Shown here in pieces: positions 31,568 to 48,368 of a DNA stretch of 64,000 nucleotides. The stretch covers positions 1,088 to 65,087 of the forward strand of contig WFTQ01000109.1 in the NCBI GenBank assembly GCA_015485355.1, written 5' to 3'. Source of the stretch: a bacterium. GTDB taxonomy: Bacteria; Calditrichota; Calditrichia; RBG-13-44-9; J042. Made by a program: the position numbers and the translations under genes. Every line of letters starts with the position of its first letter. Within the stretch, counting starts at the first letter, position 1. The notes below the pieces were generated by a model, which was not told the origin of the DNA, did no database searches, and worked only from the letters and a program-made list of their open reading frames with translations.

Positions 31568-33370
31568 TTATATCGTTTCCGGTAGGGTATATTGACGCCC
31601 TCGGTTGACCTCTTTTAAGTATTCCTGAAGCGGGGCGAAATAATTCACCATGGCCCTGGCGCTCATATCCTCACCCAGCACCTCGCGCAACAGCTCGCGC
31701 CAGTCCCGGGTAGCCCCCGGCGCCATAATGTGTTCCAGAAATTTTCCCACGGCCTTGCTGCCGTAGTAATTGGTGGCATGGGGGTCTTGTTTCAAAATAT
31801 TTCGGGCAATGTAATCGTGGAACTGAAAGAGCAGCACAAAGGAGAGAGCGTAATCGTAATATTGGGCCGCATCGTTGTTGATATGCGTTTTCGAAGCGGC
31901 GTCGCAATAGGTTTCGTCCCGCGGTTCCGGGGGGATGATTCCCTGGTATTTCTTTTTCAGTTCCCACCAGGTCCGGTTAAAGCGTTCGGGGGACAAATTG
32001 TCCGCGTACAGGCGCTTTTCGAATTCCGTCATCACCCCGGCGGCCCAGGGAATGAAAACCACATAATTGAGGGCCTCCTTCAGCAGGGCTTTTATTTCGT
32101 CGGTTTGATCGTCTTCGGGTAACAGATTCAGATAGGCCAGAAAAGATTTTTGCATCGCCGCTAAGCCCATCAGGCTTCCTATGGCCTCATGAAAGGCACG
32201 ATTGGCACCGCTGCGTAAAAGGATGGGTACTTGAGGACGACTGTAGGCGATAAAGTAGTACACATGTCCCAGTTCGTGATGCACGGTTTCGTACCAGGAG
32301 GCATTGGGAATGACGCTCATCAAGCTGCGAACATCTTTATCCAGGTCCAGATGCCAGGCCGAAGCATGGGTGTTTTTCTTATATGGTGCGTCTTTGGGAA
32401 GGGGATAGAGGCTGGAATGTTCCCAGAAGGTTCTGGGCAGGGGCGGGAATCCCAGGCTGATGTAAAAACGCTCCCCTTGTTTGACGATCCATTCGGCGGT
32501 TTTATTCCCCAGCACGCCATCCAGGTCCAGCCCTTCGGCGGAAATGATGGCATTCCAATCCTGCCCCCAGCGGTTGGGCAACCAATGAGCAGGTAAATAG
32601 TCTGGAACCTGTTTGACGCCGTAACGTTTAGCCAGTTCGTACCGGGCATAGGTGTGCAATTCCCGGTACAGGGACCAGATTTCCCGAATCAGCTGTTGGG
32701 TTAGGGCCAACATTTCGTGGGTGGTCATTCCGTATTCCGAAACCTGATAGGTGAAATAGTCAGGATAATTTAGTGCCTGCACCGTTTTATTCCGCAGATC
32801 GCGGAGTTTTACCAATCCCTCTTTGAGCGCTTTTCCCACTTCCTTGCTGGCCGTCCAGGTTTTTAAGCGTTTCTCCAGAGAAGTCTCTGTCTGAAGAATT
32901 TGATCGATTTCGTTGGGCGTCACCGATCGCCCGTCAATCTTAAAATCGAACCCAAAGAGTTTTTCCGTCTGTTCGGTTTCTGCTTTAATGCGATCCTTTA
33001 CCAATTGAGGAACGGTTTGAGGATTGTTGGCGGCGATGTAAAGCATGGCTTCCAGCTGGCGAACCTGTAAAGGAGTGAGCCGATTCTTCGATTTTAAGAA
33101 TGCTTGAATGGTTTTAATGTTTTCTTTGCTGCCCGTAAAAGCCGCCAGGGCCTCGTTGGCTTTCCGGGTGGCGATGGCGTTAGTGGAATCGCCCTCGATG
33201 ATCATGGTGTTCGATTGCCACTCCGCCTTTGACGCGGCGTAATACAATTGCTGAAACTTGGCTGTGTATTGATCGATGAAGGCCTGGGCATCCTTACGAA
33301 TGTCCTGGGATGATTGGCATCCCAGCATCGCCAGCATTGCCAGAGCGAGTAGCGGGATTCGTTTCATCAT
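31568..33370 (-). CDS. M2 family (angiotensin-converting enzyme-like) metallopeptidase lipoprotein
   Basis: Lipobox MLGC, zinc motif HHELGH, downstream FHEAIG, HWLPNRWGQDW and QYYDY. RBS before the ATG at 33370. Confidence 0.92.
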   Translation of the reverse strand: MMKRIPLLALAMLAMLGCQSSQDIRKDAQAFIDQYTAKFQQLYYAASKAEWQSNTMIIEGDSTNAIATRKANEALAAFTGSKENIKTIQAFLKSKNRLTPLQVRQLEAMLYIAANNPQTVPQLVKDRIKAETEQTEKLFGFDFKIDGRSVTPNEIDQILQTETSLEKRLKTWTASKEVGKALKEGLVKLRDLRNKTVQALNYPDYFTYQVSEYGMTTHEMLALTQQLIREIWSLYRELHTYARYELAKRYGVKQVPDYLPAHWLPNRWGQDWNAIISAEGLDLDGVLGNKTAEWIVKQGERFYISLGFPPLPRTFWEHSSLYPLPKDAPYKKNTHASAWHLDLDKDVRSLMSVIPNASWYETVHHELGHVYYFIAYSRPQVPILLRSGANRAFHEAIGSLMGLAAMQKSFLAYLNLLPEDDQTDEIKALLKEALNYVVFIPWAAGVMTEFEKRLYADNLSPERFNRTWWELKKKYQGIIPPEPRDETYCDAASKTHINNDAAQYYDYALSFVLLFQFHDYIARNILKQDPHATNYYGSKAVGKFLEHIMAPGATRDWRELLREVLGEDMSARAMVNYFAPLQEYLKEVNRGRQYTLPETI

Positions 33371-33637: not shown

Positions 33638-33663
33638 CCGGGAGGGAAAGTCGCCCCTCCCGG
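33638..33663 (-). terminator. GC-rich hairpin downstream of the porin/MCO operon
   Basis: CCGGGAGGG-N8-CCCTCCCGG. Confidence 0.5.
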
Positions 33664-33686: not shown

Positions 33687-34877
33687 TTAGGGAATGTAGC
33701 CGTGTTCCAGATTGAGTAACGATTCGCGGTCGTCGAACTGATTGTTCCAGCTCTGGTCGATGGAGTAGACAAAACCGAATTGAATTCGGGTTTCGCTTTC
33801 GCCGTAAAGGGTTCTCAAGTCTCCGTTGAATTGTCGGAACTGGAGCTGGGCCACGGCATCGAAATTCTCTCCCAATCGATAGAAGACATTGCCGACGATC
33901 TGGAACTGATCGCTTTTTTGCACCAGGTCCGGAAAGATTTTATAGCCGGCGGAGAGAGCCACTTGCAGGGCGGGGCGCTCCAGTTTGCGCATCAGATAAC
34001 GCAGGGAGCCGAAGGCTGCCAGGGCTCGGGCCCGGGTCATGGTGAAAAAGTCGATCACCTGTTTTATTTCGCTGAATCCCTCGTTGTAGATTGCCTGCGC
34101 CCGGAGGTCGATAAAGTGAATGGGATCCGGTTTTAAATTGAGGACCATCGAAGCGGTGACATTTTTTAACGCCCGATCCCAGCGACGGGTATAACCGGGC
34201 CGATCGGTAAGGAAATTATTGAAACCGATTCCAATTTGTTGAAGAATGGGGCGGTTCCAGAGCTGTGTTTGAGGCACCCGATATTGAATGGAAAACCCTA
34301 TGGCATTCAAACTAAAGTCTTTTTCTGCCGTTTCCGGGGGGATGGGGGTTCGGGTAAAATGTTCCCCGTGGAGCCGTATCCACACTCTCTGGTTAAAAAT
34401 GCGGGCGTATTCCAGCACATTGCCGTATTGGTGATCTTCGGTATTTTCTCCGGACGAGAAGGGGTTCAAGACATCGGTAAATTCCAGGGCGTCGTCATCC
34501 CGGAGGGTGGGAAATTCAATCATGGCGCTGCGAACCCGGGAACGACCCAGTTTAATAATGTTGGATTGATCCTCGAGCTGGATGAAGGTTTGGTGAAAAA
34601 ACAACTGCCCCAGGTCGGACTCGGCATCCGGGAATTGAAAACCGATGACCAGCTGACCCCGGAAGGTGTTGTAGAGTTTTTGCCGAAATCCTGTGAGCAG
34701 TCCGGTGTCGGAAAAATCGTTTACCGCCGTGGTCGTCTGATGAACCAGAATATCGGTGTTAAATGAGACCACCCCTCGGGCCCCCAGCTGAATTTCCGGG
34801 TTTACCTGGGCCCCGGCCGTCATCCACAGGCCCAATGTCCCTATGATCGACAAGGCATGCTTTTTAAAGGACCTCAT
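33687..34877 (-). CDS. Putative outer-membrane porin/beta-barrel protein
   Basis: Signal peptide followed by Gln, amphipathic beta-strand pattern, 31 bp downstream of the MCO gene. Confidence 0.72.
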   Translation of the reverse strand: MRSFKKHALSIIGTLGLWMTAGAQVNPEIQLGARGVVSFNTDILVHQTTTAVNDFSDTGLLTGFRQKLYNTFRGQLVIGFQFPDAESDLGQLFFHQTFIQLEDQSNIIKLGRSRVRSAMIEFPTLRDDDALEFTDVLNPFSSGENTEDHQYGNVLEYARIFNQRVWIRLHGEHFTRTPIPPETAEKDFSLNAIGFSIQYRVPQTQLWNRPILQQIGIGFNNFLTDRPGYTRRWDRALKNVTASMVLNLKPDPIHFIDLRAQAIYNEGFSEIKQVIDFFTMTRARALAAFGSLRYLMRKLERPALQVALSAGYKIFPDLVQKSDQFQIVGNVFYRLGENFDAVAQLQFRQFNGDLRTLYGESETRIQFGFVYSIDQSWNNQFDDRESLLNLEHGYIP

Positions 34878-34908
34878 ATTGGCTCTCCTAAATAAATCGG
34901 GTTAGCGT

Positions 34909-36099
34909 TTATTCATCCAATGCCACATGGGGCAGATTGGGCAGCCCCATTTTTTGGGCCATCATGCTTAATTCCGTTTCTTCTGCGGGTAAATCTTCGT
35001 AAACCAGGGCCAGAAGATTCCCCCCGGGGTAAAGTCCGTTGTTCGTTACCCGGGAAGTGTCGTGGTCGTGAAAAGTCCAGATCCCGCGATTTTTGCCTTC
35101 AATAATAATGTCGGCCGTTTTGCCGGGGCTGAGCCGCATGGTGTTCATTTGCCAGGGTTGGGGAATGGGAAGCCCGTCGTCAGCCACCAGCCAGAAATCG
35201 TGGCCGTGGAGGTGCAGGTAGTGCTCCGTTTGACCGGCATTGATTAACCGCACGCGGATGGTTTCCCCGGAACGGATGTACAGATTGGGCGTCATGGGGT
35301 AAGACTTGCCGTTCACGGTGAACCAGTTGGGTTGAGGCAAATCTGCTTGGGACCTGCGACTAATGACATAGGGGGGCAAGTATCCCGCTTCCACTGCCTG
35401 GACGAACTCTTCTTTGGTATTGAAAACGGCGAAGCGCTTTTTGTCGAAGCGACCGGTCTTCATCAAATACATGCGCTCTTTCATTCGCTCCAGCATGGCG
35501 TTCAATTCGTTTCGCACGAAGTTACTGTCGTGGGCGGAGTAGATCAGGGTATACTCCCGTTCGTAGGGAAATTTTTTGAGGATAGGGTCGTCATCATTCT
35601 CGATAATGAAACTGCCGAACATGCCCGACTGCATGTGCAGCAAAGTCCCCCAGTGGCAATGGTAGAAATGCGTTCCATAAGGTTCGGCCGTAAATTCATA
35701 GACGAACTCCTGACCCGGCATGACGGGCATTTGAGTGACATAGGGAACCCCATCCATACGCCAGGGAACATGAAGACCGTGCCAGTGAATGGTGTGATTG
35801 AGTTCGGTTTTGTTTTTCAGGATGACCCGGACTTTATCTCCCTGTTTCACCCGAAACTCGGGTCCGGGAACCCGATTGTTGAACGCCAGAGTGTGAAATT
35901 GGAATCCGGGAACCACTTCGTGTTGGTAGATGTCGATGAAAAGATGAAACTCTTTTACGTCTCCATCCATTTTGGGCTCCAAGGCAACCGGAAAACGGCT
36001 GTTGTTGGCCGCCCGGGCCTCCGAGGTTAACAGATAATGAGGCATGAGCACAGCGGCCGACAACACGGTGGTGGTTTTAAGAAAATCGCGTCGATTCAT
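34909..36099 (-). CDS. TAT-exported two-domain multicopper oxidase (type C)
   Basis: TAT signal MNRRDFLK. Domain 1 has HTIHWHG and HCHWGTLLHMQSGM (T1 site). Domain 2 has HYLHLHG and HDHD (no T1 Cys). RBS AAGGAGG. Confidence 0.9.
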   Translation of the reverse strand: MNRRDFLKTTTVLSAAVLMPHYLLTSEARAANNSRFPVALEPKMDGDVKEFHLFIDIYQHEVVPGFQFHTLAFNNRVPGPEFRVKQGDKVRVILKNKTELNHTIHWHGLHVPWRMDGVPYVTQMPVMPGQEFVYEFTAEPYGTHFYHCHWGTLLHMQSGMFGSFIIENDDDPILKKFPYEREYTLIYSAHDSNFVRNELNAMLERMKERMYLMKTGRFDKKRFAVFNTKEEFVQAVEAGYLPPYVISRRSQADLPQPNWFTVNGKSYPMTPNLYIRSGETIRVRLINAGQTEHYLHLHGHDFWLVADDGLPIPQPWQMNTMRLSPGKTADIIIEGKNRGIWTFHDHDTSRVTNNGLYPGGNLLALVYEDLPAEETELSMMAQKMGLPNLPHVALDE

Positions 36100-36317
36100 A
36101 AATGTTTCCTCCTTTTGGAAAGTCATCAAATTTATTGAAACTACGGATGAATATTGGGCTATGCAAGTACTCCCCGGTTTCGATCCCTGAGGGAGGCCTG
36201 GGATTGAGGACGGCTGAGGTGTTTGCTGCCCGGCCCGTTCATCTGTCCCGGGAAAAGCGCTTCTGGTTCGCCAAGCATCCTTCAAATATCCGTTGCTTAA
36301 ATTCCCGAAAACAGGGT

Positions 36318-36333
36318 TTCAATAATCATGCCA
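36318..36333 (-). promoter_or_regulatory. sigma54-type promoter candidate for the MCO-porin operon
   Basis: Minus strand reads TGGCAT-GATTA-TTGAA (-12 is GA rather than GC). TGT-N10-ACA at 36438-36453 and a related site at 36407-36420 lie upstream. Confidence 0.5.
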
Positions 36334-36841
36334 AAAGTGTGGCTGTGTTCCCTCCCTTACCAGTCTTTCCCTGTTTGCCCTGCCCGATTGGCCTGAGTCT
36401 TTTGGGTGTGGATATTTCCGAAATTTGTTTCACCGGATGTAGAATAATCCACATCTCGGTTCGGATTGTCTGGAACGAGTGACCCCGCCGAGGTCGTTAT
36501 CGATGGGACGTGTAGAGGCGATGAGCGGACGGGAGCGTGTGGGTTCGAATGATCGGATGGTACCGGTGAATGGTCGGTTTCCGGCAATGACGTTCGCCGA
36601 GACAAGATTGATCTCTTCCGGACGATTCATGAAGTCCCCGCTGTTGGGCCCGCAATTTTTGCACCGAGGCTTGATCGGGGTCGTCCGGGAGGGTAAAGAA
36701 ACACCGCTCGATGCTCATCCAACGGGCGGCTGGGTCTTGTTGCGCCGGTTGCCTGGAAATGTCCGGTCGGGAAGCCAACCGAATCGGACAGTTTCCCATT
36801 CCCGGCCCCGATAAACTTCGGATGCAGACCGTTTCTGTTCC

Positions 36842-36871
36842 CCATCCGGAAAGGGTGACCTTTCCGGATGG
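36842..36871. terminator. Perfect 13-bp hairpin downstream of the P-type ATPase gene
   Basis: CCATCCGGAAAGG-GTGA-CCTTTCCGGATGG. Confidence 0.55.
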
Positions 36872-36948
36872 CAGGGGTTGGGTCGGAAAAGACATCTCGA
36901 AAGAAACGATGGGAAGGCGGTATCGGATGCCCCCCGGGGGCAGGGACT

Positions 36949-39309
36949 TTACTTTCGGAACGCGCTTGGGTTCATGTTAAAGTTCAACAGTCGCAGTGCA
37001 TTGGCTACCACAACCAGGGTCGATCCTTCGTGAAATAAGATGGCGATGCCGATGGTGGCGTAGCCGACCAGAGTGGCGATGATCAGGAAGAAGATCACTC
37101 CCAGAGAGACGGCGATGTTTTGCTGAATGATGCGTCGGGTTTTTCGGCTGAGGGCCACTGCGAAGGGGAGTTTACTCAGATCGTCTGCCATGAGGGCGAT
37201 GTCGGCGGTTTCCAGGGCCACATCGGAACCGCTGGCGCCCATGGCGATACCCACCGTGGCATTGGCCAGTGCGGGGGCGTCGTTCACCCCGTCCCCCACC
37301 ATGGCGACTTTATGGTATTTCCGGATCAGGTTCCGAATGGTGGTGACCTTATCCTGGGGCAATAAGCCGGCCTGAAATTCGGTGATGCCTACGCGCCGGG
37401 CGATGGCCATGGCGACCTGGAGATTATCGCCGGTCAGCATGATCAGCTGTTTGATGCCCAGCTTCCGCAGGGTGTTCATCGTGGAGGCGGCATCGGGGCG
37501 GGGTTGATCGGCCAGAGCAATGATCCCGAGAAACTTGCCGTTTCGGCGCACCAGCATGGTGGTATAGCCGTTGGATTGCAGCGCTGCGTTCCGCCGGGCG
37601 ACCGATTCCGGAAGGGGTTGATTTAACCGCTCTGTAAAGAGGCGTACGTTGCCGATTTCGATGGTTTCGCCGTCGATGGTGCCCACCAGGCCTTTCCCCG
37701 AGAGGGTCTGAACGGCCTCGGCTTCCGGAAAGACGAGATGCATGCTCTGGACTTTGCGGAGAATGGCCTTTGCCAGGGGATGCTGCGACCGGCTTTCCAC
37801 GGCGGCGGCCACCCGCATCAATTCCTGAGGTTCGGTTCCGTTCAAGGGAATCACCTTCACCACTTCCGGTCGACCCATGGTGATGGTGCCCGTTTTGTCG
37901 AAAGCGATGGCGTGCAGGGCCCCCAGATTTTCCAGATGCACCCCACCCTTGATCAGTATACCGGTATGGGCGGCACGGGCGATCCCGGATAGGATGGCCG
38001 AGGGCGTGGCAATGGCCAGGGCACAGGGGGAAGCAGCCACCAGGATGGTGAGACCCCTCAGAAAAGCAGTACTCCAGTCCAGCCAACCTACGAGAGGCGG
38101 CAGAAAGATGAGCAATACCACCCCACCCAGGACTACCGGGACAAAGACCCGTTCAAACTTTTCGGTAAACAGTTGAGTGGGCGATTTTTGCGTCTGGGCC
38201 TCTTCCACCATCTGGATCACCCGGGCCAGGGTGGTATCTTTGGCCAGTCGGGTCACTTCGACCTTGAGCGCCCCTTCTCCGTTGATGGTACCGGCAAAAA
38301 CCTCGCCCCCTGTTGTTTTATCGACGGGAACGCTTTCCCCGGTGATGGGGCTTTCGTCGATACTGGATTGACCCTCGACGATTTTCCCGTCGATGGGAAT
38401 CCGCTCACCGGGGCGGACGATGACGATGTCGCCCCGCTGGAGTTCCTCGACCGGGATTTCGCTTTCCTGCCCATCGCGCTGAATGCGGGCCGTTCGCGGG
38501 GCGATTCCCGCCAACGCCCGGATGGCATTGCGTGCCCGATCCATGGCGAAGTGTTCCAGGGAATGCCCCAGACTAAACAGGAATAACAACAACGCCCCTT
38601 CCGACCATGCTCCAAGTATGGCCGCCCCTACGGCGGCAACCACCATCAGGAAATCGATGTCGAATCGAAGTTTAAGGGCGGCCTTTAGGCCGTGCCGGGT
38701 GGCTTCGTATCCACCCGTCAAATAAGCCAGCATGTATAGAATGAGAGATGCCCGGGGAGGCAGGAAACCGGCTTTTTCTCCTGCAACCCCTACGGCCAGA
38801 AATGTTCCCGCCAGCAGGGAGAGGACCAGTTCGAAGTTGCGCCGTAGCCAGGTTTCTTTGCGCGCTTCTTCGATGCCGTAGCCCAGTTCCCGCACCAGGG
38901 ATCGAATCTGCCGCTGGGTGATTTTCCGGCTGTCGTATTCGATGCGCATCTTTTCGGCCGCGTAGTTCACCGTTACCGCCAAAACGCCCGGCCGTCGCTG
39001 CAGGATGTGTTCGATGCTGAGGGCGCAGTCGGCACAGTCCATTCCGGTGATCCGCAGGGTCTCGTGAATAAATTGGCGGCTGATTTCCACACCGGTCTGC
39101 CGCGCCAGTCGGCGAAGCTGTTCGATGGTGGTGAGATTGGGATCGTAATGCAAACAAAGCACGGCTTCCCCATCTTTGCGATCGATATGAACCTGTTCCA
39201 CCCCGCGTTTGATTTCCAGACGTTCGATCAGGCGCTGTACGCACTGGTCGCGTTCATCTTTTACATGGGGAAGCAAAACCGGTAATTCTATTTGCAATTT
39301 CTTTTCCAT
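36949..39309 (-). CDS. Heavy-metal P1B-type ATPase (P1B-4 signature) with N-terminal HMA-like domains
   Basis: GMDCADC, TGES, intramembrane SPC, DKTGT, HP, GDGVND and HEGST. Confidence 0.95.
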   Translation of the reverse strand: MEKKLQIELPVLLPHVKDERDQCVQRLIERLEIKRGVEQVHIDRKDGEAVLCLHYDPNLTTIEQLRRLARQTGVEISRQFIHETLRITGMDCADCALSIEHILQRRPGVLAVTVNYAAEKMRIEYDSRKITQRQIRSLVRELGYGIEEARKETWLRRNFELVLSLLAGTFLAVGVAGEKAGFLPPRASLILYMLAYLTGGYEATRHGLKAALKLRFDIDFLMVVAAVGAAILGAWSEGALLLFLFSLGHSLEHFAMDRARNAIRALAGIAPRTARIQRDGQESEIPVEELQRGDIVIVRPGERIPIDGKIVEGQSSIDESPITGESVPVDKTTGGEVFAGTINGEGALKVEVTRLAKDTTLARVIQMVEEAQTQKSPTQLFTEKFERVFVPVVLGGVVLLIFLPPLVGWLDWSTAFLRGLTILVAASPCALAIATPSAILSGIARAAHTGILIKGGVHLENLGALHAIAFDKTGTITMGRPEVVKVIPLNGTEPQELMRVAAAVESRSQHPLAKAILRKVQSMHLVFPEAEAVQTLSGKGLVGTIDGETIEIGNVRLFTERLNQPLPESVARRNAALQSNGYTTMLVRRNGKFLGIIALADQPRPDAASTMNTLRKLGIKQLIMLTGDNLQVAMAIARRVGITEFQAGLLPQDKVTTIRNLIRKYHKVAMVGDGVNDAPALANATVGIAMGASGSDVALETADIALMADDLSKLPFAVALSRKTRRIIQQNIAVSLGVIFFLIIATLVGYATIGIAILFHEGSTLVVVANALRLLNFNMNPSAFRK

Positions 39310-39398: not shown

Positions 39399-39974
39399 TC
39401 AGGGATTCAATTCTTTTTGAATCCGGGCCACTTCTTCGCGTATCTGAGCGGCGATGTTTCCGGTGCTTTGCAGTTTCAGATATTCTTTGAAGCAGCGTAA
39501 TGCCTCCGGGTTGTTCTTTAAAAAATATCGGTAAGTAACGCCCAATTGCAACCAGCCGTCGGCATAGGTGGGAAATTTCTGCACCGCTTCTTCGAACTTA
39601 GCCTTCCCCTGAAGGGCGTTGTTGCCTTCGCGCAAGGCGATCCCCAGATCGACCAGAGCTTCGGCCGATTCCGGATTAACGATGATGGCCAGTTCAAAAA
39701 TCTCGGCGGCGTTGTCAAACCGGCGCGCCTCCAGATAGGCATGACCCAGTGCCATGAGCAGGTTGAAATCCTGAGGATCCATTTTTAAACGGGTGCGCAG
39801 GTCCTGTATGCGTTGCTCCAGCTCCACCTGAGGAGACGCCGTTTCTTCGACTGTTTCCTCGTCTTCATGCTCGTGGGGATGTTGAGGAGGACCCAATTTT
39901 TGCACGAAAAGGTATCCGGCAAAAATGAAAAATATCACCCCCAGTATAATGAGGATTGTCCGGGTCTGCAACAT
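39399..39974 (-). CDS. Membrane-anchored TPR protein with a His/acidic linker
   Basis: N-terminal TM, PQHPHEHEDEE, then several TPR-like helix pairs. Confidence 0.8.
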   Translation of the reverse strand: MLQTRTILIILGVIFFIFAGYLFVQKLGPPQHPHEHEDEETVEETASPQVELEQRIQDLRTRLKMDPQDFNLLMALGHAYLEARRFDNAAEIFELAIIVNPESAEALVDLGIALREGNNALQGKAKFEEAVQKFPTYADGWLQLGVTYRYFLKNNPEALRCFKEYLKLQSTGNIAAQIREEVARIQKELNP

Positions 39975-40175
39975 GGTTGGGGTTCTCCTTTGCTTTGATT
40001 TTGTATGGTTTCATTGATTGCCATTGGTTGCCTTTTGGCCCGTAACCGCCCTACCCGAGCGCAGAGTCAACCGCCTATCAATCCGTTGCAGTCACCGGTC
40101 CAATTTCTAAAACAGTGGCCGGGTTTCAAAATCTTTTTTTCGATCGCTTCCCCGGATCATCCGGCGGAAGGGAGC

Positions 40176-40207
40176 GGCGTCTTTCCCGCTGCAACCGGAA
40201 AGACGCC
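40176..40207. terminator. 11-bp hairpin downstream of the PII gene
   Basis: GGCGTCTTTCC-N10-GGAAAGACGCC. Confidence 0.45.
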
Positions 40208-40221
40208 CCAGGAGTTTCAGA

Positions 40222-40557
40222 TCATACCGCGGTTTCGCCCCGTTCGCCGGTACTGATGCGAACCGCTTGTTCGGCATCGCAGACGTAAATTTTACCGTCG
40301 CCCTTTAAACCGGTATGCGCCTCTCGCTCGATGGTGGCGACCAGCTCGTCCACCATCTCGTCCCGACAGAAAATCTCGATTTTGATGTGGGGAACAAAAT
40401 CGTATAACTGATCCTCCAGGGAGGGTTTTTCCACCGCGCACCGACCAAAACCTTTGACTTCTAAGACCGTCATTCCCGGCAGGTCTTCGATTTTCTGCAA
40501 CGCCAGGGTCACGGTGCTGAGTTTATGGGGCTTGATATAAGCGATAATATGTTTCAT
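40222..40557 (-). CDS. PII family protein associated with heavy-metal RND efflux
   Basis: MKHIIAYIKPHKL, GMTVLEVKGFG, KIEI, AHTGLKGDGKIYV and VRISTGERGE. Confidence 0.92.
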   Translation of the reverse strand: MKHIIAYIKPHKLSTVTLALQKIEDLPGMTVLEVKGFGRCAVEKPSLEDQLYDFVPHIKIEIFCRDEMVDELVATIEREAHTGLKGDGKIYVCDAEQAVRISTGERGETAV

Positions 40558-40598
40558 GATGGTCTCCTTTTCGTTTCTTGCCAAACGCCGGGCACTTC

Positions 40599-43500
40599 TT
40601 AATCCAGTTGACGTTCGCTTTCGATGTTGATGGCGAACCATTTATAAATGGCCGGAATGACCAGCAGCGTTAAAAGGGTGGAAGTGATTAATCCCCCGAT
40701 CACCACGGTGGCAAGGGGTCGCTGCACTTCGCTGCCCACGCCGGTGGACAACAGCAGGGGAATGAGGCCCAGTGCCGTGGTTATGGCCGTCATCAGCACC
40801 GGACGCAGACGCAGCATGGCGCCCTGTACGGAGGCTTCGTCCATGGGAATACCGTCTTTTAAGAGTTGGTTGAGATAAGTGACCAATACCATGCCGTTTT
40901 CCAGCGCGATTCCGAATAGGGCGATGAATCCCACCGAAGACGGGACGGAGAGGTTTTGACCGGAGATCCACAGGGCCACTACGCCTCCCACAAGCGCCAG
41001 AGGGATGTTCAACAGGATCAGAAAGGAGTTTTTCAGCGAGTTGAAACTGGAAAAGAGCAACAGAAACACGATAAGCAGGGTAATGGGAATGACGACCATC
41101 AGGCGCTTGTTTGCTTCCTGCTGCAGTCGGAATTGCCCGCCCCAGGTAACCAGATATCCCGGCGGGAGCTTCACTTTTTCGGCAATGGCTCGTTGCCCTT
41201 CTTCTACAAACGATCCGATATCGCGACCCACCACATTGCACTGGATGGTGATGAAGCGCTGGCTGTTTTCCCGGGTGATCTGGCGGGGTCCGATGATTTC
41301 TTCGATAGTGGCCAGTTGAGAGAGGGGGACATGAATACCATTGGGTGCCTCGATGAGGATTTCGCCGATGGCTTTGGGGGTGCTGCGAAATTCCGGGGCG
41401 AAACGGACCAGGATATCGAAACGGCGCACGCCTTCGAATATTTGACCGGCCGTTTCGCCCCCCACGGCCGCCCGAATCACCTGCTGTACGTCTTCCACGT
41501 TGATGCCATAGCGGGCGATGGCGTGCCGGTCGACCTTGATGAGCAGCTGAGGGGTGCCGGTGATTTGATCGGCCTGCACGTCCGCCGCTCCGGGAACCTG
41601 CTGAATCACTTTCACGATCTCATCGGCCTTTTCTTTGAGTATCTCCAGGTCGTCGCCGAACAGCTTGATGGCCAGCTCTGCCCGGACGCCTTCCAGCAGT
41701 TCATCCACGGTCATCTGAATGGGTTGGGTGAAGTTGGCCAGCACTCCGGGAATGGCGCCCACTTCTTTCCGGATTACGTTTTCCAGCTCCTGCTGGGTCC
41801 TGGCGGTACGCCACTCTTCCCGGGGCCTCAGCAGGATATACATTTCCGCGCTGTTAATGGGATCGGTGTGAGCGCCGACCTCGCCCCGCCCGATTCGCGT
41901 GACTACCCCGGTCACCTCCGGTATTTTCATTACCCGCCGCTCGACAATCTGGGTGATGCGGGTGCTTTCTTTCAAAGAAATGGAAGGAGCCATGGTTAAG
42001 CGAAGCACGATGGTACCCTCTTGCAGAGTGGGGGTGAATTCGGATCCCAGCCGGGGAAAGATGATAAGCCCGATGAGCATTAAAACCACGGCCAGTGCCA
42101 CCGCCAGCATGCGCCGTTTGATGAAAAAAGTGATGATGGGCCGGTACCGGGATTGCAGTTTGCGCACCAGCCAGATTTCCCGGGGGGTATTTTGAACGCT
42201 GTTTTCCCGAGGGCGACGCATGAACAAGCTGGATAGCACGGGTGCCAGGAACATGGCGAAGATCAACGAGCCCAGCATGGCCAAGGCCACGGTATAGGCC
42301 AGAGGACGAAACGTTTTGCCCTCCACCCCATGCAGGGTAAACAGCGGCAAAAATACCACGATAATGATGGAAATGGCGAACAGAATGGGACGCGCAACTT
42401 CCCGACAGGCCCGCGATACCACATGGATGAGGGGTTCTTCCCGGCTGGACTGCCGCAACATGCGATCCACATTTTCCACCATCACAATGGTCCCGTCTAC
42501 CATCATTCCGATGGCGATGGCCAGCCCCCCGAACGACATCAGATTAATGGAGATGCCAAAATATCTCATCCCCACGATGGCAAAGAGAATGGAAAAAGGA
42601 ATGGAGATGGCCACAACCAGACTGGGGCGGAACGATCCCATGAAAATCATCAGGATGAAAACCACCAGTAAAATGCCCTGCAACAGGGCGCTGGTTACCG
42701 TATTAACGGCGGCTTCCACCAGGGTCTTTTGTTGGTAATACGGGACGATACGCACGCCGGGAGGCAGAATCTTGTTGATTTCTCTCAACTTCTCTTCCAC
42801 CCGCCCGATTACCGTGGAGGAATTGGTACCGTAGAGCTTGATGACCATCCCGGCTACCACTTCTTCCACTCCGTTTCGGGTTTGCACACCCCGACGAATG
42901 GCGCCGCCAATCTTAATATCGGCCAGTTGTTTCAAATAGATGGGAGTCCCGTCGTCGGATTTGATGACAATGTTTTCCAGATCCTCGATGTTGAAGGCCA
43001 ATCCCACAGAACGAACAATAAATTCCTCCGAGTTTTTTTCGATAAACTGGGCCCCCACATTCAGATTATTGGCCTTGATTTTTTCAATGACTTCATTGAC
43101 CGTTACATCGTAGCGGAGCAGAGCGTTTTGATCCAGGATCACGTGATACTGTTTTTCCCATCCGCCGATGCCCAGGACTTCGGTGACGCCGGGTACCGTT
43201 TGGAGCTGATATTTGATCAGCCAATCCTGGATGGTCCGGAGTTCGGTCAGGGAATATTGGCCGGTGGTGTCTTCCAGGTAATAAAACAGAACCAGACCCA
43301 TACCGGTGGAAATGGGCCCCATTTGGGGATCACCAAAACCTTCGGGGATTTGTTCCCGGGCCTCCTGCAAGCGTTCGTTGACCAGCTGACGCGCGAAGTA
43401 GATGTCTGTACCATCCTTGAAATAGACATTGACCACAGAGAGACCAAAGTTAGACACCGAGCGAATCCGCTCCAGGTTCGGCAACCCGTTCATGGCGACT

Positions 43501-43706
43501 TCCACCGGAAAGGTCACATATTTTTCAATTTCCTCCGGGGCCAGTCCCTCGGTGACGGTAAACACCTGAACCAGCGATGGGGATACATCGGGAAACGCAT
43601 CGATGGGGAGTTGTTTATAGCTGTAAAAGCCGCCCGCCAGGATCAATACGCCGAGCACGATCATTAACAGACGGTTTTTAAGTACAAAGTTTATAATGCC
43701 TTTCAT
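40599..43706 (-). CDS. czcA: CusA/CzcA family heavy-metal RND permease
   Basis: 1035 aa with IDAFPDV, GMMVDGTIVMVEN, FRPLAYT, RLRPVLMT and QRPLATVVIGG. Confidence 0.93.
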   Translation of the reverse strand: MKGIINFVLKNRLLMIVLGVLILAGGFYSYKQLPIDAFPDVSPSLVQVFTVTEGLAPEEIEKYVTFPVEVAMNGLPNLERIRSVSNFGLSVVNVYFKDGTDIYFARQLVNERLQEAREQIPEGFGDPQMGPISTGMGLVLFYYLEDTTGQYSLTELRTIQDWLIKYQLQTVPGVTEVLGIGGWEKQYHVILDQNALLRYDVTVNEVIEKIKANNLNVGAQFIEKNSEEFIVRSVGLAFNIEDLENIVIKSDDGTPIYLKQLADIKIGGAIRRGVQTRNGVEEVVAGMVIKLYGTNSSTVIGRVEEKLREINKILPPGVRIVPYYQQKTLVEAAVNTVTSALLQGILLVVFILMIFMGSFRPSLVVAISIPFSILFAIVGMRYFGISINLMSFGGLAIAIGMMVDGTIVMVENVDRMLRQSSREEPLIHVVSRACREVARPILFAISIIIVVFLPLFTLHGVEGKTFRPLAYTVALAMLGSLIFAMFLAPVLSSLFMRRPRENSVQNTPREIWLVRKLQSRYRPIITFFIKRRMLAVALAVVLMLIGLIIFPRLGSEFTPTLQEGTIVLRLTMAPSISLKESTRITQIVERRVMKIPEVTGVVTRIGRGEVGAHTDPINSAEMYILLRPREEWRTARTQQELENVIRKEVGAIPGVLANFTQPIQMTVDELLEGVRAELAIKLFGDDLEILKEKADEIVKVIQQVPGAADVQADQITGTPQLLIKVDRHAIARYGINVEDVQQVIRAAVGGETAGQIFEGVRRFDILVRFAPEFRSTPKAIGEILIEAPNGIHVPLSQLATIEEIIGPRQITRENSQRFITIQCNVVGRDIGSFVEEGQRAIAEKVKLPPGYLVTWGGQFRLQQEANKRLMVVIPITLLIVFLLLFSSFNSLKNSFLILLNIPLALVGGVVALWISGQNLSVPSSVGFIALFGIALENGMVLVTYLNQLLKDGIPMDEASVQGAMLRLRPVLMTAITTALGLIPLLLSTGVGSEVQRPLATVVIGGLITSTLLTLLVIPAIYKWFAINIESERQLD

Positions 43707-44134
43707 TGTCTATCCTCGTTTTTTGATCCAACTGCCGGGTGAAGTTTGTTCCATCTTTTGCCTCTGGAGATGGAGGAATTATCGTTTCGGGGAATCGTCG
43801 GGTGCCGCAGCCGTCCGCGCCTGGCCCGTTGGTGCTGTCGCTTTGTCCCGCAGCCCTCCATTTCCGGAATTGGGAAGCCCGGTGCGGGATCGAGCCGCAC
43901 GGATGGCCGGTTACGGGAATGTGGCCCGATGTCTGGAATTGTCCGATCACACGGTCGCCTGCTCCCCCTAGCGGCCATAGGGCCGGCGCATCCTTCCAGG
44001 TCCTCCGCCGCCTGGGATTGGCGGTTTTCGGACGTTCCTCCCCTGCTTTCATACGCAGCCACAGAACCATAAACGCCATCTCCCCTTCAAAGGCAAAAGG
44101 TCGGTACAATGTCGGGAATTCCTCCATCCCATGA

Positions 44135-45109
44135 TTAATGCCCGTGTCCACCGCCGAAGGCCTCTTTCATGAGCTCTGCCTTCAGGGTAAAACCCCCTTT
44201 CTTCACATATTCTTCTCCGGGCTCCAGTCCCGCCACAATTTCCACATTGGAATCGTTTTCCCGTCCTAAGATGACGGGACGGGGTACAAAGCCCTCCGGG
44301 GTTTTGACGAATACCACGGTCTGATTTTCAAAGGTTTCGATGGCCGTTTTGGGTACCACCACCGAGGCATTGAGCCGGTCGGTAATGACTTTTGCGGTAA
44401 TAAACATGCCCGGGAGCCATTGGTAATCGGGATTGGGCAGAACCACCCGGGCGATGGCGGTCCGAGTCGCCTCCTCCACAACCGGACTGATGTACGAAAT
44501 GGTGCCCACCGCGGTGACCGGGGCCGGACTGGCCGATATGATGGCCTTTTGGCCCACCCTAATGCGAGGCAGATCTTTTTGATAAATGGTTAAATCGGCC
44601 CATACGTAACTGAGATCGGCCACCACAAAGGCGTGGGTGTTGTCGGTCACCACTTCGCCTCGGGTCAAATGCATCTCGATGACCACGCCGTCGATCAGGG
44701 ATTTTACTTCGTAGGGAGACAGACTCTCGTTACTCTCGATGACTGCCAGCACCTCGCCTTTTTGCACCTCATCGCCGATTTTTTTGCGGACTTCTTTAAC
44801 GATTCCCGGAAAGCGCGGGATGATGTGGGCTAACCGATCGGGATCGATCTTGATTTCTCCGGTCAGATCCAGATGGATTTCGATCTTACCCGGACCGGCT
44901 TTTCCCAGCTCAATACCAAATTCTTGCAACACTTCCGGAGACAGGGATACCGCCTCCACATGCTCTTCGGCGGCTTCTTCCACATGGGCTTCTTCGGCCT
45001 TGGCCTGTGTGGCCAGTTCGGCCTTTTGTTCGCCGCAGCCTGACAGGATCATAGACACCAGGCTGATTCCCAGTAGGATAGCCAGAAGTTTTACACGATT
45101 GCGTACCAT
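44135..45109 (-). CDS. czcB: CzcB/CusB-like periplasmic adaptor (lipoprotein)
   Basis: Lipobox LSGC, EEAHVEEAAEEH, biotinyl-lipoyl-like domain, WLPGMFITA and a C-terminal GHGH. Confidence 0.9.
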   Translation of the reverse strand: MVRNRVKLLAILLGISLVSMILSGCGEQKAELATQAKAEEAHVEEAAEEHVEAVSLSPEVLQEFGIELGKAGPGKIEIHLDLTGEIKIDPDRLAHIIPRFPGIVKEVRKKIGDEVQKGEVLAVIESNESLSPYEVKSLIDGVVIEMHLTRGEVVTDNTHAFVVADLSYVWADLTIYQKDLPRIRVGQKAIISASPAPVTAVGTISYISPVVEEATRTAIARVVLPNPDYQWLPGMFITAKVITDRLNASVVVPKTAIETFENQTVVFVKTPEGFVPRPVILGRENDSNVEIVAGLEPGEEYVKKGGFTLKAELMKEAFGGGHGH

Positions 45110-45137
45110 TGTTCTATTCCCTCGTTTTAATTTTTTT

Positions 45138-46505: not shown

Positions 46506-46629
46506 CTGATTCCTCCATATCTATTTTTTCCCTTCGCCGGCGTACAGCGAAATATAGGGCCACCGGATCAACATCCGGTTCGTTACTCAATTATTCCGTG
46601 AATGGGATGGTGAGAATGCCGTATGAAAG

Positions 46630-47088
46630 TCAAATCAGCAAAACGGTGGTCTCAACCGTCTGGATAATCGGGTCGGATATATGATGATCACTTTTCCGGC
46701 AACAAATGTTTACGGGGTACCTCTGAAGCTGAACATTTAAGCCACCGAAAGAACCTTTATCCACTTTCCAAACGTGCTTAGTTTGAGAGACAAGGAACTG
46801 AGAGGTATTCCCCCGGTAGAGAGGAATATCCAGGCAATCGGCAGCCAGGGTGGTATGTTTTTCTGGTCCATGTAAAATGGTTTTGTGGGAAATTTCCTGG
46901 ATCAATTCGCAGTGGAACCAGGATTCCTGAGACTCCAGAGCCAGATGGCCATCGGTTCCCATACAAATCACTAAGTCGGGAAGAGAGACCTGGGCCGATA
47001 ACGTGTACAGGGTGAAAATCCAACCCAGAAGAAATGTTCCTAAGATCCGCCCGATGTTTTTTCCGTTCCGTTTCATGGCTCGATTCAT
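46630..47088 (-). CDS. Exported/membrane hypothetical protein upstream of czcC with a CxGxDGH motif
   Basis: Signal-like N-terminus, LVICMGTDGHLALE and DCLDIP. Overlaps the ArsR stop by 4 nt. Confidence 0.7.
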   Translation of the reverse strand: MNRAMKRNGKNIGRILGTFLLGWIFTLYTLSAQVSLPDLVICMGTDGHLALESQESWFHCELIQEISHKTILHGPEKHTTLAADCLDIPLYRGNTSQFLVSQTKHVWKVDKGSFGGLNVQLQRYPVNICCRKSDHHISDPIIQTVETTVLLI

Positions 47089-47450
47089 GCCCGTTCGTTT
47101 ACATGTTCTTGGGCCTGATGGATCAGAACCTCAATATGGTCATCGTCCAGGGAATAATAGGCCATTTTCCCTTCGCGACGGTATTTCACCAATTTCAGAT
47201 TTCGCAACAGGCGCAACTGGTGCGATACCGCCGAGACGGATAAGTTAATCAATGCGGCCAGATCACACACACACATTTCTTCGATGGCCAGTGCCATTAA
47301 TATCTGAATGCGGGTAGGATCGGACAGTGCCTTGAAAGTGTCGGCCAGTGCCTGGATTTTTTCTCCGTCGGGTAATTGTTGTTGCACGGTTTTGACCTTT
47401 TCCAGATTGACAATCGTTATGCTGCAATAGTCTTTTGTTTCGACACCCAT
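47085..47450 (-). CDS. ArsR/SmtB family metal-responsive repressor
   Basis: FKALSDPTRIQIL, MCVCDLA, SAVSHQLRLLR and alpha5 site D-x-H-x10-H-x2-E. RBS GGAG before the ATG at 47450 (alternative ATG at 47465). Confidence 0.93.
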   Translation of the reverse strand: MGVETKDYCSITIVNLEKVKTVQQQLPDGEKIQALADTFKALSDPTRIQILMALAIEEMCVCDLAALINLSVSAVSHQLRLLRNLKLVKYRREGKMAYYSLDDDHIEVLIHQAQEHVNERA

Positions 47451-47462
47451 TTGACGCTCCAA

Positions 47463-48367: not shown

Positions 48368-48368
48368 G

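What the first reader, a model, noticed from the sequence alone, without database searches (positions are those of the whole stretch)
33687..36099. Type C two-domain multicopper oxidase paired with an unknown porin-like protein
Seen: all four HxH motifs for a trinuclear centre (HWH, HCH, HLH, HDH), a T1 Cys only in domain 1, a TAT signal, and a Met-rich interdomain insert (MLERMKERMYLM). The beta-barrel gene follows after 31 bp. Known: type C 2dMCOs are rare and poorly characterised, and Met-rich inserts bind Cu(I) in CueO. Inference: a trans-outer-membrane metal oxidation module (Cu(I), Fe(II) or Mn(II)) in which the barrel channels the metal to a trimeric periplasmic oxidase. I do not know of this pairing being described.
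Basis: partly seen in the sequence, partly recalled or inferred. Interest (0 to 1): 0.7.

Follow-up and report, generated by a model that had tools for sequence, protein, structure and literature searches.

The report
Copper oxidase with its own porin
A small trimer-type copper oxidase and an unnamed outer-membrane pore are always encoded side by side in many bacterial phyla, usually among copper-defence genes, so they most likely form an undescribed stand-in for the classic CopA/CopB copper-resistance pair.

Summary
On the minus strand, 34909-36099 encodes a Tat-exported type C two-domain multicopper oxidase (MCO). All 12 copper ligands are invariant in 31 orthologues, and the best PDB matches are mgLAC 2ZWN and Nitrosomonas BCO 3G5W. 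After 31 nt, 33687-34877 encodes a Sec-exported protein with no Pfam, NCBIfam or PDB sequence match. AlphaFold models it as a 16-strand OmpF/Omp32-like porin.

The linkage is essentially absolute:
- 77 of 80 genome loci found through the barrel carry the pair.
- 73 of 80 metagenome loci found through the MCO carry it.
- 6 of 6 loci with barrels only 23-30% identical carry it.
- Every exception but one truncated copy simply lacks flanking DNA.

Neighbours elsewhere are mostly copper genes: Cu-type P1B ATPases, CsoR, CueR-like MerR, CopC-CopD, YtkA, DUF411, bufferins and Met/His-rich proteins. One locus reads MCO-barrel-YtkA-CopC-CopD, a positional copy of copABCD.

The MCO has a 21%-Met C-terminal tail. 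The barrel has an acidic L3 loop (invariant RDDD) and a conserved periplasmic face and tail.

Best reading (about 0.6): a periplasmic cuprous oxidase with a dedicated outer-membrane channel. It is analogous to PcoA/PcoB but not homologous, and I found no description of it. Substrate, complex formation and flux direction are untested.

The parts
36319..36333 (-). Sigma-54-like -24/-12 motif TGGCATGATTATTGA, about 220 nt upstream of the MCO start. Weak candidate promoter.
   Evidence: 3 matches in the window against 1.2 expected by chance; kept only in the closest relative L001 (1 of 68 upstream regions), so it is not a conserved feature of the module.
34909..36099 (-). Type C two-domain multicopper oxidase, 396 aa, Tat-exported.
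36007..36099 (-). Twin-arginine signal peptide (residues 1-31, MNRRDFLK...ARA).
   Evidence: R3 and F6 are invariant.
35587..35955 (-). Cupredoxin domain 1 (residues about 49-171). It carries T1 ligands H102, C148, H155 and M160, and trinuclear-centre ligands H105, H107, H147 and H149.
   Evidence: alignment to 2ZWN and 3G5W; all invariant.
35332..35586 (-). Clade-specific long interdomain linker (residues 172-256), about 50 aa longer than in mgLAC/NeBCO. Helix 192-214 contains MLERMKERMYLM; a second helix spans 229-237.
   Evidence: The long linker is kept even in MCOs 42-52% identical that partner with divergent barrels.
34990..35331 (-). Cupredoxin domain 2 (residues 257-370) with trinuclear-centre ligands H296, H298, H344 and H346. 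It has no Cys and so no T1 site.
34912..34989 (-). C-terminal tail (residues 371-396): a variable Met-rich stretch followed by the invariant LPxxALDE-COOH end.
   Evidence: 21% Met against 4.7% overall; length 11-47 aa in 59 orthologues.
34878..34908 (-). 31-nt intergenic spacer with an AGGAG ribosome-binding site for the barrel gene.
33687..34877 (-). Outer-membrane porin-like protein, 396 aa, Sec signal 1-23, predicted 16-strand barrel. It belongs to an unnamed family.
   Evidence: no family or PDB sequence hit; model; Omp32/OmpF/PorB folds; small discrete family.
34428..34535 (-). Predicted constriction loop L3 (residues 115-150). Net charge -7; invariant R126 D127 D128 D129, N138 and S141.
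   Evidence: The FPTLRDDD motif is kept in members only 23-30% identical.
33690..33746 (-). Conserved periplasmic C-terminal tail after the last strand (residues 378-396, NNQFDDRESLLNLEHGYIP). Low model confidence. Candidate docking peptide.
   Evidence: The motif R.S.LN.[EQ]H.YI is retained in divergent subclades.
33638..33663 (-). Terminator-like hairpin (10-bp stem, 8 G-C pairs) 24 nt after the barrel stop. It ends the two-gene unit.

Best explanation
The two genes form one functional unit for handling copper in the cell envelope. It works like CopA/CopB (PcoA/PcoB) but is built from non-homologous parts.

Proposed mechanism:
1. The Tat-exported type C 2dMCO assembles as a homotrimer in the periplasm. 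This is obligatory, because its trinuclear centres form between domain 1 of one subunit and domain 2 of the next.
2. It recruits Cu(I) with its Met-rich C-terminal tail, and perhaps with the Met-bearing linker helix.
3. It oxidises Cu(I) to Cu(II) at the domain-1 T1 site and passes the electrons to O2.
4. The partner is a dedicated 16-strand porin with a strongly acidic eyelet. It gives copper a selective path across the outer membrane, most likely letting Cu(II) out. It probably docks to the oxidase through its conserved periplasmic turns and C-terminal tail.

Shown: the gene anatomy, the copper ligands, the export signals, the predicted folds, the strict synteny and the copper-rich neighbourhoods.

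Inferred: the substrate, the physical complex, the 3:3 stoichiometry and the direction of flux.
For: 1. Enzyme class. The best sequence matches are 2ZWN (E 3.7e-57) and 3G5W (5.3e-53), and they are also the best fold matches. All 12 Cu ligands are invariant.

2. Partner fold. The AF2 model has pLDDT 81 and pTM 0.79. Foldseek gives Omp32, BpsOmp38, PorB and OmpF at E 1e-11 to 1e-9 and TM up to 0.67-0.69 normalised to the target.

3. Linkage.
- 77 of 80 barrel-ascertained genome loci have the MCO directly upstream on the same strand. Of the other three, two lack upstream DNA and one is a truncated barrel.
- 73 of 80 MCO-ascertained metagenome loci have the barrel directly downstream. The other seven have 369 bp or less of downstream DNA.
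- 6 of 6 barrels only 23-30% identical (for example Sulfuriflexus mobilis) are also preceded by a 400-440 aa type C MCO.
- Pairwise identities of the two proteins correlate across loci, r = 0.84.
- Everything else in the neighbourhood varies.

4. Copper context.
- 12 of 17 neighbouring P1B ATPases are Cu-type: 7 with CPC/YN/MxxSS and 5 with CPH plus a His-rich N-terminus.
- L165 reads CsoR-x-MCO-barrel-YtkA-CopC-CopD, next to a MerR regulator and an HMA-ATPase.
- L169 carries a two-component system, DUF411 and a bufferin operon.
- HMA-AraC regulators and Met/His-rich small proteins recur.
- A second, 3-domain MCO lies nearby in Caldithrix abyssi and four other loci.

5. Met-rich element. The MCO C-terminal tail is 21% Met. 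Subclades that lack this tail have instead a Met/His-rich gene directly after the barrel, for example MDHSQHMNMDHS repeats. Met-rich regions recruit Cu(I) in CueO (PMC11494321), and Met/His-rich C-termini occur in cuprous-oxidase laccases (PMC12723717).

6. Barrel conservation. It is highest in the acidic L2 and L3 loops, the periplasmic turns T5-T7 and the C-tail (0.80-0.90). The outer loops L4-L8 score 0.47-0.56.

7. Precedent for coupling. The PcoB N-terminal region stabilises PcoA (PMC12509749).
Against: - No experiment, transcript data or complex model is available. Only DNA metagenomes from hydrothermal vents hold this sequence.
- In this window the adjacent pump is a Zn/Co/Cd-type ATPase (SPC, HEGxT) beside a CzcCBA-like system and mer genes. 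No copper-specific gene or regulator lies next to the pair.
- The barrel has no Cys, only 4 Met and 7 His, and only one invariant His (H392). It has no soft-metal site, and an OmpF-like eyelet could pass many hydrophilic solutes.
- The solved type C 2dMCOs were characterised as laccase-type or broad oxidases, not cuprous oxidases (my own knowledge).
- Several hosts are anaerobes, for example Caldithrix abyssi (my own knowledge), whereas an MCO needs O2. This is softened by the finding that CueO catalysis contributes to copper resistance under anaerobic growth conditions (PMC12510620).
- The loop-and-turn topology used for the conservation argument rests on an AF2 model and on the standard outer-membrane-protein orientation.
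Confidence: 0.6

Rival explanations
1. Iron or manganese oxidation module. The porin admits Fe(II) or Mn(II), or lets the oxidase reach the surface. The MCO acts as a ferroxidase or manganese oxidase, for detoxification, iron acquisition or energy.
For: - A porin-MCO unit was proposed for Fe(II) oxidisers using PcoAB, and P. aeruginosa PcoA is a ferroxidase (PMC5566968).
- The window comes from hydrothermal-vent metagenomes rich in reduced metals.
- c-type cytochrome genes lie near the pair in about 10 loci.
- Sulfuriflexus has TonB/ExbBD and PepSY_TM genes upstream.
Against: - The recurring neighbours are copper-specific: CopC/CopD, CsoR, YtkA, DUF411, bufferins, Cu-type ATPases and Met-rich proteins.
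- Carriers include ordinary aerobic heterotrophs such as Maribacter, Aquimarina and Flavobacterium frigoris.
- Methionine-rich tails suit Cu(I) or Ag(I), not Fe(II) or Mn(II).
Confidence: 0.12
2. Organic-substrate oxidase. The porin imports a phenolic, catecholate-siderophore or similar compound, and the laccase-like MCO oxidises it in the periplasm.
For: - The nearest solved relative, mgLAC (2ZWN), is deposited as a 'two-domain type laccase'.
- The barrel looks like a general-diffusion or substrate-specific porin and has no metal-binding motif.
- PcoA has been suggested to act through siderophore oxidation (PMC5566968).
Against: - None of about 160 neighbourhoods has a recurrent aromatic-catabolism or siderophore gene set.
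- The Met-rich tail, or the Met/His-rich third gene, argues for a metal substrate.
Confidence: 0.1
3. The two proteins are unrelated in function and merely travel together on mobile metal islands.
For: - The pair lies in mosaic heavy-metal islands whose other genes differ from genome to genome.
- Identities of 60-90% across phyla suggest horizontal transfer.
Against: - Order, orientation and adjacency are kept in about 160 loci, while all other neighbours change.
- They are kept down to 23% barrel identity, with 4-nt overlaps in some loci.
- That degree of preservation is not expected without selection on co-expression.
Confidence: 0.05
4. Nitrogen-oxide enzyme: a nitrite-reductase-like or nitrite-tolerance function, as for the Nitrosomonas ncgA blue copper oxidase.
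For: - NeBCO (3G5W) is the second-best match.
- The TIGR02376 nitrite reductase model gives a weak hit, 87 bits against a cut-off of 296.
- In N. europaea the homologue sits in the ncgABC-nirK operon (my own knowledge).
Against: - The protein has a complete eight-His trinuclear centre, not a NirK-type T2 site.
- No nir, nor or nos genes recur near the pair.
- NeBCO lacks the long linker and, from my own knowledge, is followed by cytochromes rather than a barrel.
Confidence: 0.03

Closest known systems
PcoA/PcoB (E. coli pco) = CopA/CopB (Pseudomonas syringae copABCD; Caulobacter pcoAB)
   Same: - A Tat-exported periplasmic multicopper oxidase gene is followed directly by an outer-membrane beta-barrel gene.
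- Both lie in copper-resistance contexts.
- One relative (L165) even continues with CopC-CopD as in copABCD.
- A Met/His-rich flexible segment accompanies the pair.
- The barrel lumen is electronegative (PMC9210255).
   Different: - The oxidase is a two-domain, trimer-type MCO of 396 aa, not a three-domain monomer of about 600 aa. TIGR01480 scores 127 bits against a cut-off of 479.
- The barrel is a predicted 16-strand OmpF-like porin. PcoB is a 12-strand OmpLA-like monomer.
- There is no PF05275 (CopB) signal in any of 35 members.
- The Met-rich disordered segment is on the oxidase C-terminus or on a third protein, not on the barrel N-terminus (PMC12509749).
Type C two-domain MCOs with solved structures: mgLAC (PDB 2ZWN) and Nitrosomonas europaea blue copper oxidase (PDB 3G5W)
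   Same: - The domain order and ligand pattern are the same: T1 in domain 1 only, and HxH pairs split 2+2 between the domains.
- They are the best sequence and fold matches.
- A trimeric assembly is therefore expected.
   Different: - This clade has an interdomain linker about 50 aa longer, with two helices.
- The FCB-type members also have a Met-rich C-terminal tail ending in ALDE.
- No barrel partner is reported for the solved enzymes. N. europaea ncgA is followed by cytochromes and nirK (my own knowledge).
CueO (E. coli periplasmic cuprous oxidase)
   Same: - It is a Tat-exported MCO.
- It has a methionine-rich segment thought to recruit Cu(I) (PMC11494321).
- The proposed chemistry, Cu(I) to Cu(II), is the same.
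   Different: - CueO is a three-domain monomer.
- Its Met-rich helix lies over the T1 site in domain 3.
- It has no dedicated outer-membrane partner.
- NF008205 scores 89 bits against a cut-off of 525.
General trimeric 16-strand porins (Omp32, OmpF/OmpC, PorB, BpsOmp38)
   Same: - The predicted fold and strand number agree.
- A long third loop carries an acidic cluster facing conserved basic residues on strands 1-5.
- Periplasmic turns are short and external loops longer.
   Different: - There is no significant sequence similarity. Porin_4 hits only 3 of 35 members, at E of 0.005 or worse.
- The family is small: 128 representatives in 1.84 billion.
- It is unusually conserved, 50-85% identity across phyla.
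- It has a conserved 19-aa periplasmic C-terminal tail and does not end in the usual aromatic residue.
- It always follows one specific enzyme gene.
Porin-cytochrome and hypothesised porin-MCO electron conduits (MtoAB/PioAB; 'PcoAB' of He et al. 2017)
   Same: A periplasmic redox protein gene is paired with an outer-membrane barrel gene, and the metals are redox-active.
   Different: - Those barrels have 26 strands (MtrB/MtoB-type; my own knowledge) or are PcoB-type.
- Here nothing suggests that the oxidase enters the barrel.
- The context is copper defence, not respiration.

Membership tests
Type C two-domain multicopper oxidase | Exactly two cupredoxin domains in a protein of about 300-400 aa | tested here: met
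   Pfam Cu-oxidase_3 (residues 69-169) and Cu-oxidase_2 (residues 256-346) in a 396-aa protein. The model shows two beta-sandwich domains.
Type C two-domain multicopper oxidase | T1 (blue) copper ligands His-Cys-His-Met present in domain 1 and absent from domain 2 | tested here: met
   H102, C148, H155 and M160 are invariant. Domain 2 has HDH, with Asp at the Cys position. C148 is the only Cys of the protein.
Type C two-domain multicopper oxidase | Eight His of the trinuclear centre as four HxH motifs, two per domain | tested here: met
   HWH 105-107, HCH 147-149, HLH 296-298 and HDH 344-346. All are invariant in 31 orthologues and align to the same motifs of 2ZWN and 3G5W.
Type C two-domain multicopper oxidase | Homotrimer with trinuclear centres at the subunit interfaces | not testable with these tools
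   Only monomer prediction is offered. Low pLDDT in the ligand-bearing loops of the monomer model (113-119, 152-155, 351-359) is compatible with an obligate oligomer but proves nothing.
CopA/PcoA copper-resistance multicopper oxidase (TIGR01480) | Three-domain architecture scoring above the family cut-off | tested here: not met
   TIGR01480 scores 127.3 bits against a cut-off of 478.95. Only the N-terminal 190 residues align.
CopB/PcoB outer-membrane copper protein (PF05275) | Sequence match to the CopB family | tested here: not met
   No hit for P0002. No CopB hit in any of 35 members even at E up to 10.
CopB/PcoB outer-membrane copper protein (PF05275) | 12-strand OmpLA-like barrel with a disordered His/Met-rich N-terminal region | tested here: not met
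   The model has about 16 strands, and all 50 listed Foldseek hits are 16-18-strand porins and outer-membrane channels. The mature N-terminus is short and not His/Met-rich. PcoB features are taken from PMC9210255 and PMC12509749.
General 16-strand porin (OmpF/Omp32 class; Pfam Porin_4 clan) | 16 antiparallel strands with a long inward-folding loop L3 | tested here: inconclusive
   The prediction and Foldseek agree (TM 0.55-0.69 normalised to the target, E about 1e-11..1e-9). DSSP gives 17 segments, and strands 47-54 and 59-67 are read here as one.
General 16-strand porin (OmpF/Omp32 class; Pfam Porin_4 clan) | Significant sequence or profile match to a porin family | tested here: not met
   Porin_4 matches only 3 of 35 members, best E 0.0048, below the threshold. 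PDB phmmer gives no hit at E up to 10.
General 16-strand porin (OmpF/Omp32 class; Pfam Porin_4 clan) | Homotrimer in the outer membrane | not testable with these tools
   No multimer prediction or experimental data are available.

The most novel reading that the evidence does not exclude
The trimeric oxidase sits coaxially on a trimeric porin as a fixed 3:3 supercomplex. It is held by the invariant C-terminal peptides of both proteins (ALDE-COOH and LNLEHGYIP). Each Met-rich oxidase tail reaches into, or up to, one pore. The unit would then be a true trans-outer-membrane oxidase. It would capture Cu(I), or another reduced metal, as it crosses the outer membrane and oxidise it before it ever becomes free in the periplasm. 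That would be a copper-enzyme counterpart of the porin-cytochrome conduits. It would also give type C two-domain MCOs their long-missing physiological role.
Probability: 0.15. Interest if true: 0.8.

Novelty: new variant of a known kind. Interest (0 to 1): 0.6.

Why it matters
- Type C two-domain MCOs have solved structures but no agreed physiological role. A strictly conserved partner and a copper-defence context give them a testable one.
- The partner founds an unnamed family of outer-membrane porins. It has no Pfam or NCBIfam model and is annotated 'hypothetical protein'. Its selectivity loop is highly conserved. How copper crosses the outer membrane is still poorly understood.
- The module appears to replace CopA/CopB in many lineages: Calditrichota, KSB1, Zixibacteria, Ignavibacteria/Chlorobiota, Marinimicrobia, Nitrospirota, marine Flavobacteriaceae and some Gammaproteobacteria.
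- Annotation-based surveys of copper resistance in oceans, sediments and vents therefore probably miss it.
- The matching three-fold symmetry of a trimeric oxidase and a trimeric-type porin makes it an attractive target for structural work on periplasm-to-outer-membrane coupling.

Tried and rejected
- The genome search and the fetch from genomes were shut, so the window's own genome could not be searched for second copies or regulators.
- Pfam, NCBIfam and PDB sequence searches of the barrel gave nothing. A per-member Pfam scan at E up to 10 gave only sporadic Porin_4 or Porin_3 noise and no CopB.
- hhalign of the barrel family against the Porin_O_P-like barrel that recurs nearby in Flavobacteriaceae showed no relationship (probability 0.6%).
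- The sigma-54-like motif upstream is not conserved beyond the closest relative, so I rejected it as part of the module.
- Rfam found nothing in the whole window, including the 850-nt gap upstream of the MCO.
- No RNA runs hold the sequence; only five vent DNA metagenomes do. Co-transcription and induction could not be checked.
- There was no plasmid match for the barrel.
- A conserved His cluster in the barrel (H95/H170/H173) held in the 35-sequence alignment but not among 73 sequences; only H392 stays invariant. I rejected it.
- Literature searches for a two-domain MCO with a porin or outer-membrane partner found no description. The Bizionia paper concerns a different arrangement, a PcoA-PcoB fusion.
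- A complex model of trimer plus barrel could not be made.


Full report
**1. What is in the sequence**

Both genes lie on the minus strand.

The oxidase:
- ORF 34909-36099 starts at an ATG preceded by GGAGG and encodes 396 aa.
- The N-terminus MNRRDFLK is a twin-arginine signal. TIGR01409 scores above its cut-off and Pfam TAT_signal just below.
- Pfam finds Cu-oxidase_3 and Cu-oxidase_2, that is, two cupredoxin domains.
- The best PDB sequence matches are the two solved type C two-domain MCOs, mgLAC 2ZWN (E 3.7e-57) and the Nitrosomonas europaea blue copper oxidase 3G5W (5.3e-53). The alignments place HTIHWHG, YHCH...H...M, HLHGH and HDH on the same motifs.
- In 31 orthologues all twelve copper ligands are invariant: T1 H102/C148/H155/M160, and trinuclear H105/H107/H147/H149/H296/H298/H344/H346.
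- C148 is the only cysteine, so the T1 site is in domain 1 only.
- The AF2 monomer (pLDDT 72) again matches 2ZWN and 3G5W best.

The barrel:
- After a 31-nt spacer with its own AGGAG, ORF 33687-34877 encodes a 396-aa protein with a Sec signal.
- It has no Pfam, NCBIfam or PDB sequence match.
- With a 35-sequence alignment, AF2 gives a confident barrel (pLDDT 81, pTM 0.79).
- Its best structural neighbours are 16-strand general porins: Omp32, BpsOmp38, PorB and OmpF (E 1e-11 to 1e-9, TM up to 0.67-0.69).
- A strong hairpin follows the stop codon.

**2. The pair is a unit**

- I fetched 80 genome loci through the barrel. In 77 of them an orthologue of the MCO (61-91% identical) lies directly upstream on the same strand. 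Two of the other three have no upstream DNA. The third (L063) is a truncated barrel behind a Rieske gene on a 3-kb contig containing Ns.
- I fetched 80 metagenome loci through the MCO. In 73 of them the barrel is directly downstream. The other seven have 369 bp or less of downstream DNA.
- Nothing else in the neighbourhood is constant.
- A profile search of 1.84 billion representative proteins finds only 128 relatives of the barrel, so the family is small and discrete.
- I looked up six members that are only 23-30% identical to the window's barrel, including one from the complete genome of Sulfuriflexus mobilis. All six are preceded by a 400-440-aa type C MCO (42-52% identical for five of them; the sixth locus, L166, is a closer relative at 70%) that keeps the long interdomain linker.
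- In several loci the two genes overlap by 4 nt.
- Pairwise identities of the two proteins are correlated across loci, r = 0.84.
- The carriers are labelled Calditrichota, KSB1, Zixibacteria, Ignavibacteria/Chlorobiota, Marinimicrobia, Nitrospirota, Krumholzibacteriota, Flavobacteriaceae (Flagellimonas, Maribacter, Aquimarina, Flavobacterium frigoris) and Gammaproteobacteria. MAG labels should be treated with caution.

**3. Which metal**

In this window the pair closes a mixed heavy-metal island:
- an outer-membrane factor, membrane-fusion protein and CzcA-type RND pump;
- a P-II-like protein and a TPR protein;
- a P1B ATPase with SPC and HEGxT motifs (Zn/Co/Cd-like);
- further upstream, ArsR, a MerT-HMA fusion and a MerA-like reductase.

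The local context therefore says 'metal' but not which one. Elsewhere the answer is clearer:
- Of 17 neighbouring P1B ATPases, 7 are Cu(I)-type (CPC, YN, MxxSS) and 5 are CPH-type with His-rich N-termini.
- Recurring neighbours include DUF302, DUF2231, HMA-AraC regulators, small Met/His-rich exported proteins, c-type cytochromes and a second, three-domain MCO.
- The divergent subclades are the most telling. L165 reads CsoR, a 250-aa protein, MCO, barrel, YtkA, CopC, CopD, with a divergent MerR regulator and an HMA-ATPase. This is the copABCD layout with the first two genes replaced.
- L169 has a two-component system, the pair, a cytochrome c, DUF411 and a bufferin operon.
- L167 and L168 have YtkA genes after the barrel.

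**4. Methionine-rich elements**

- It is conserved: M202 and M206 are invariant and M213 is present in 64 of 71 sequences. It is modelled as a long amphipathic helix. It is not very Met-rich.
- A better candidate is the C-terminal tail. Between the YEDLP motif and an invariant LPxxALDE carboxy-terminus lies a segment of variable length (11-47 aa) and variable sequence that is 21% Met, against 4.7% for the whole protein.
- Subclades whose MCO lacks this tail have, directly after the barrel, a gene for a Met/His-rich exported protein. Examples are MMNLMMVEGSGMEGMSMDM and MDHSQHMNMDHS repeats. From my own knowledge, these recall the repeats of Pseudomonas CopA and CopB.
- Met-rich domains recruit Cu(I) in CueO (PMC11494321). 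Met/His-rich C-termini occur in cuprous-oxidase laccases (PMC12723717).

**5. The barrel**

I assumed the standard topology: termini and short turns in the periplasm, long loops outside. On that basis:
- The most conserved parts are L2 (0.88), L3 (0.80, net charge -7, invariant R126-D127-D128-D129), periplasmic turns T5-T7 (0.84-0.90) and a 19-residue tail after the last strand (0.86).
- The outer loops L4-L8 are the least conserved, 0.47-0.56.
- Conserved arginines and lysines on strands 1-5 face the acidic L3, as in OmpF-type eyelets.
- The FPTLRDDD motif and the C-terminal LNxEHxY motif persist at 23-30% identity.
- The barrel has no Cys, few Met and one invariant His. It looks like a channel for hydrated cations such as Cu(II), not a soft-metal binder.
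- The conserved periplasmic face and tail are what one would expect of a docking surface. This is inference.

**6. Mechanism proposed**

A periplasmic trimeric cuprous oxidase is coupled to a dedicated acidic porin, working like PcoA/PcoB. Section 7 sets out why neither protein is a member of those families. The enzyme class, export signals, predicted folds, synteny and context are shown. The substrate, the complex, the stoichiometry and the flux direction are inferred. The direction is unsettled even for PcoB, with import argued in PMC9210255 and efflux in PMC12509749.

Caveats:
- The local context is Zn/Cd/Hg rather than Cu.
- There are no expression data.
- Some hosts are anaerobes. However, CueO catalysis matters even under anaerobic culture (PMC12510620).

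**7. Comparison with known systems and novelty**

- The idea of an MCO with an outer-membrane barrel is old: CopAB/PcoAB, and the porin-MCO hypothesis of He et al. 2017.
- Here both parts fail the membership tests for those families. TIGR01480 scores 127 against a cut-off of 479, there is no PF05275 signal, and the barrel has 16 strands against 12.
- The Met-rich flexible segment has moved from the barrel N-terminus to the oxidase C-terminus or to a third gene.
- Full-text searches found no description of a two-domain MCO with a porin partner. Database names are 'multicopper oxidase domain-containing protein' and 'hypothetical protein'.
- I therefore class it as a new variant of a known kind, with moderate-to-high interest.

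**8. Earlier notes of this scan**

Earlier notes of this scan mention the same pairing in another genome and the island in this one. They were used as leads only.

Noticed in passing
window 39399-49784: The pair sits at the end of a mosaic heavy-metal island. The island holds an OMF-MFP-CzcA-type RND pump (40599-46505) and a P-II-like gene overlapping the RND stop (40222-40641). It also holds a TPR protein (39399-39974), an ArsR regulator (47085-47465), a MerT-HMA fusion (47738-48367) and a MerA-like flavoprotein (48369-49784). No mobility gene was seen in the part I read.
   Followed up: partly
window 36949-39309: The adjacent P1B ATPase has an HMA domain but an SPC motif in TM4 and a HEGxT motif. 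It scores best on the Zn/Cd/Pb models, so the pump next to this copper-type oxidase is probably not a copper pump.
   Followed up: partly
window 36100-36948: An 850-nt stretch between the ATPase and the MCO has no convincing ORF and no Rfam hit. It contains a sigma-54-like motif (36319-36333, minus strand) that is shared only with the closest relative L001.
   Followed up: partly
L016:3483-5395; L060, L065, L066, L070, L072, L076, L078, L080 upstream of the MCO: A recurrent trio lies a few genes upstream of the pair in Flavobacteriaceae, Chitinophagales and one Calditrichota MAG. It consists of a small cytochrome c (about 140 aa), a Porin_O_P-like barrel of about 385 aa, and a small CxxCH protein (about 100 aa). 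This barrel is unrelated to the MCO partner by hhalign. It may be a separate porin-cytochrome unit.
   Followed up: partly
L164:7217-7678 and L169:7200-7673: In the gammaproteobacterial subclade, the gene directly after the barrel encodes a 153-157-aa exported protein with MDHSQHMNMDHS-type His/Met repeats. It has no Pfam family.
   Followed up: no
L169:9332-11272: A bufferin-type RiPP operon (BufA1, MbnB-like, HvfC_N) and a DUF411 gene lie within 3 kb of a divergent MCO-barrel pair.
   Followed up: no
about 15 related loci each, e.g. L046:9187-9573 (DUF302), L035:4525-4797 (DUF5676), L031:6139-6672 (DUF2231): DUF302, a 2-TM DUF5676 protein and DUF2231 membrane proteins recur next to the pair in several phyla. 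Their role in metal handling is unknown.
   Followed up: no
window 31568-33370: A lipoprotein-type M2 (angiotensin-converting-enzyme family) peptidase lies directly downstream of the pair. It is also present downstream in the closest relative L001 (86% identity).
   Followed up: no
L063:1735-3065: This is the only aberrant copy found. The barrel gene lacks its first 80 or so codons and abuts a Rieske-type gene on a short Aminicenantes MAG contig containing Ns. It is probably an assembly or binning artefact, or a pseudogene.
   Followed up: partly
all related loci: The MCO is 61-91% identical and the barrel 48-85% identical between MAGs assigned to different phyla. That is far above what vertical descent would give, which suggests frequent horizontal transfer of the pair, some mis-binned contigs, or both.
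   Followed up: no
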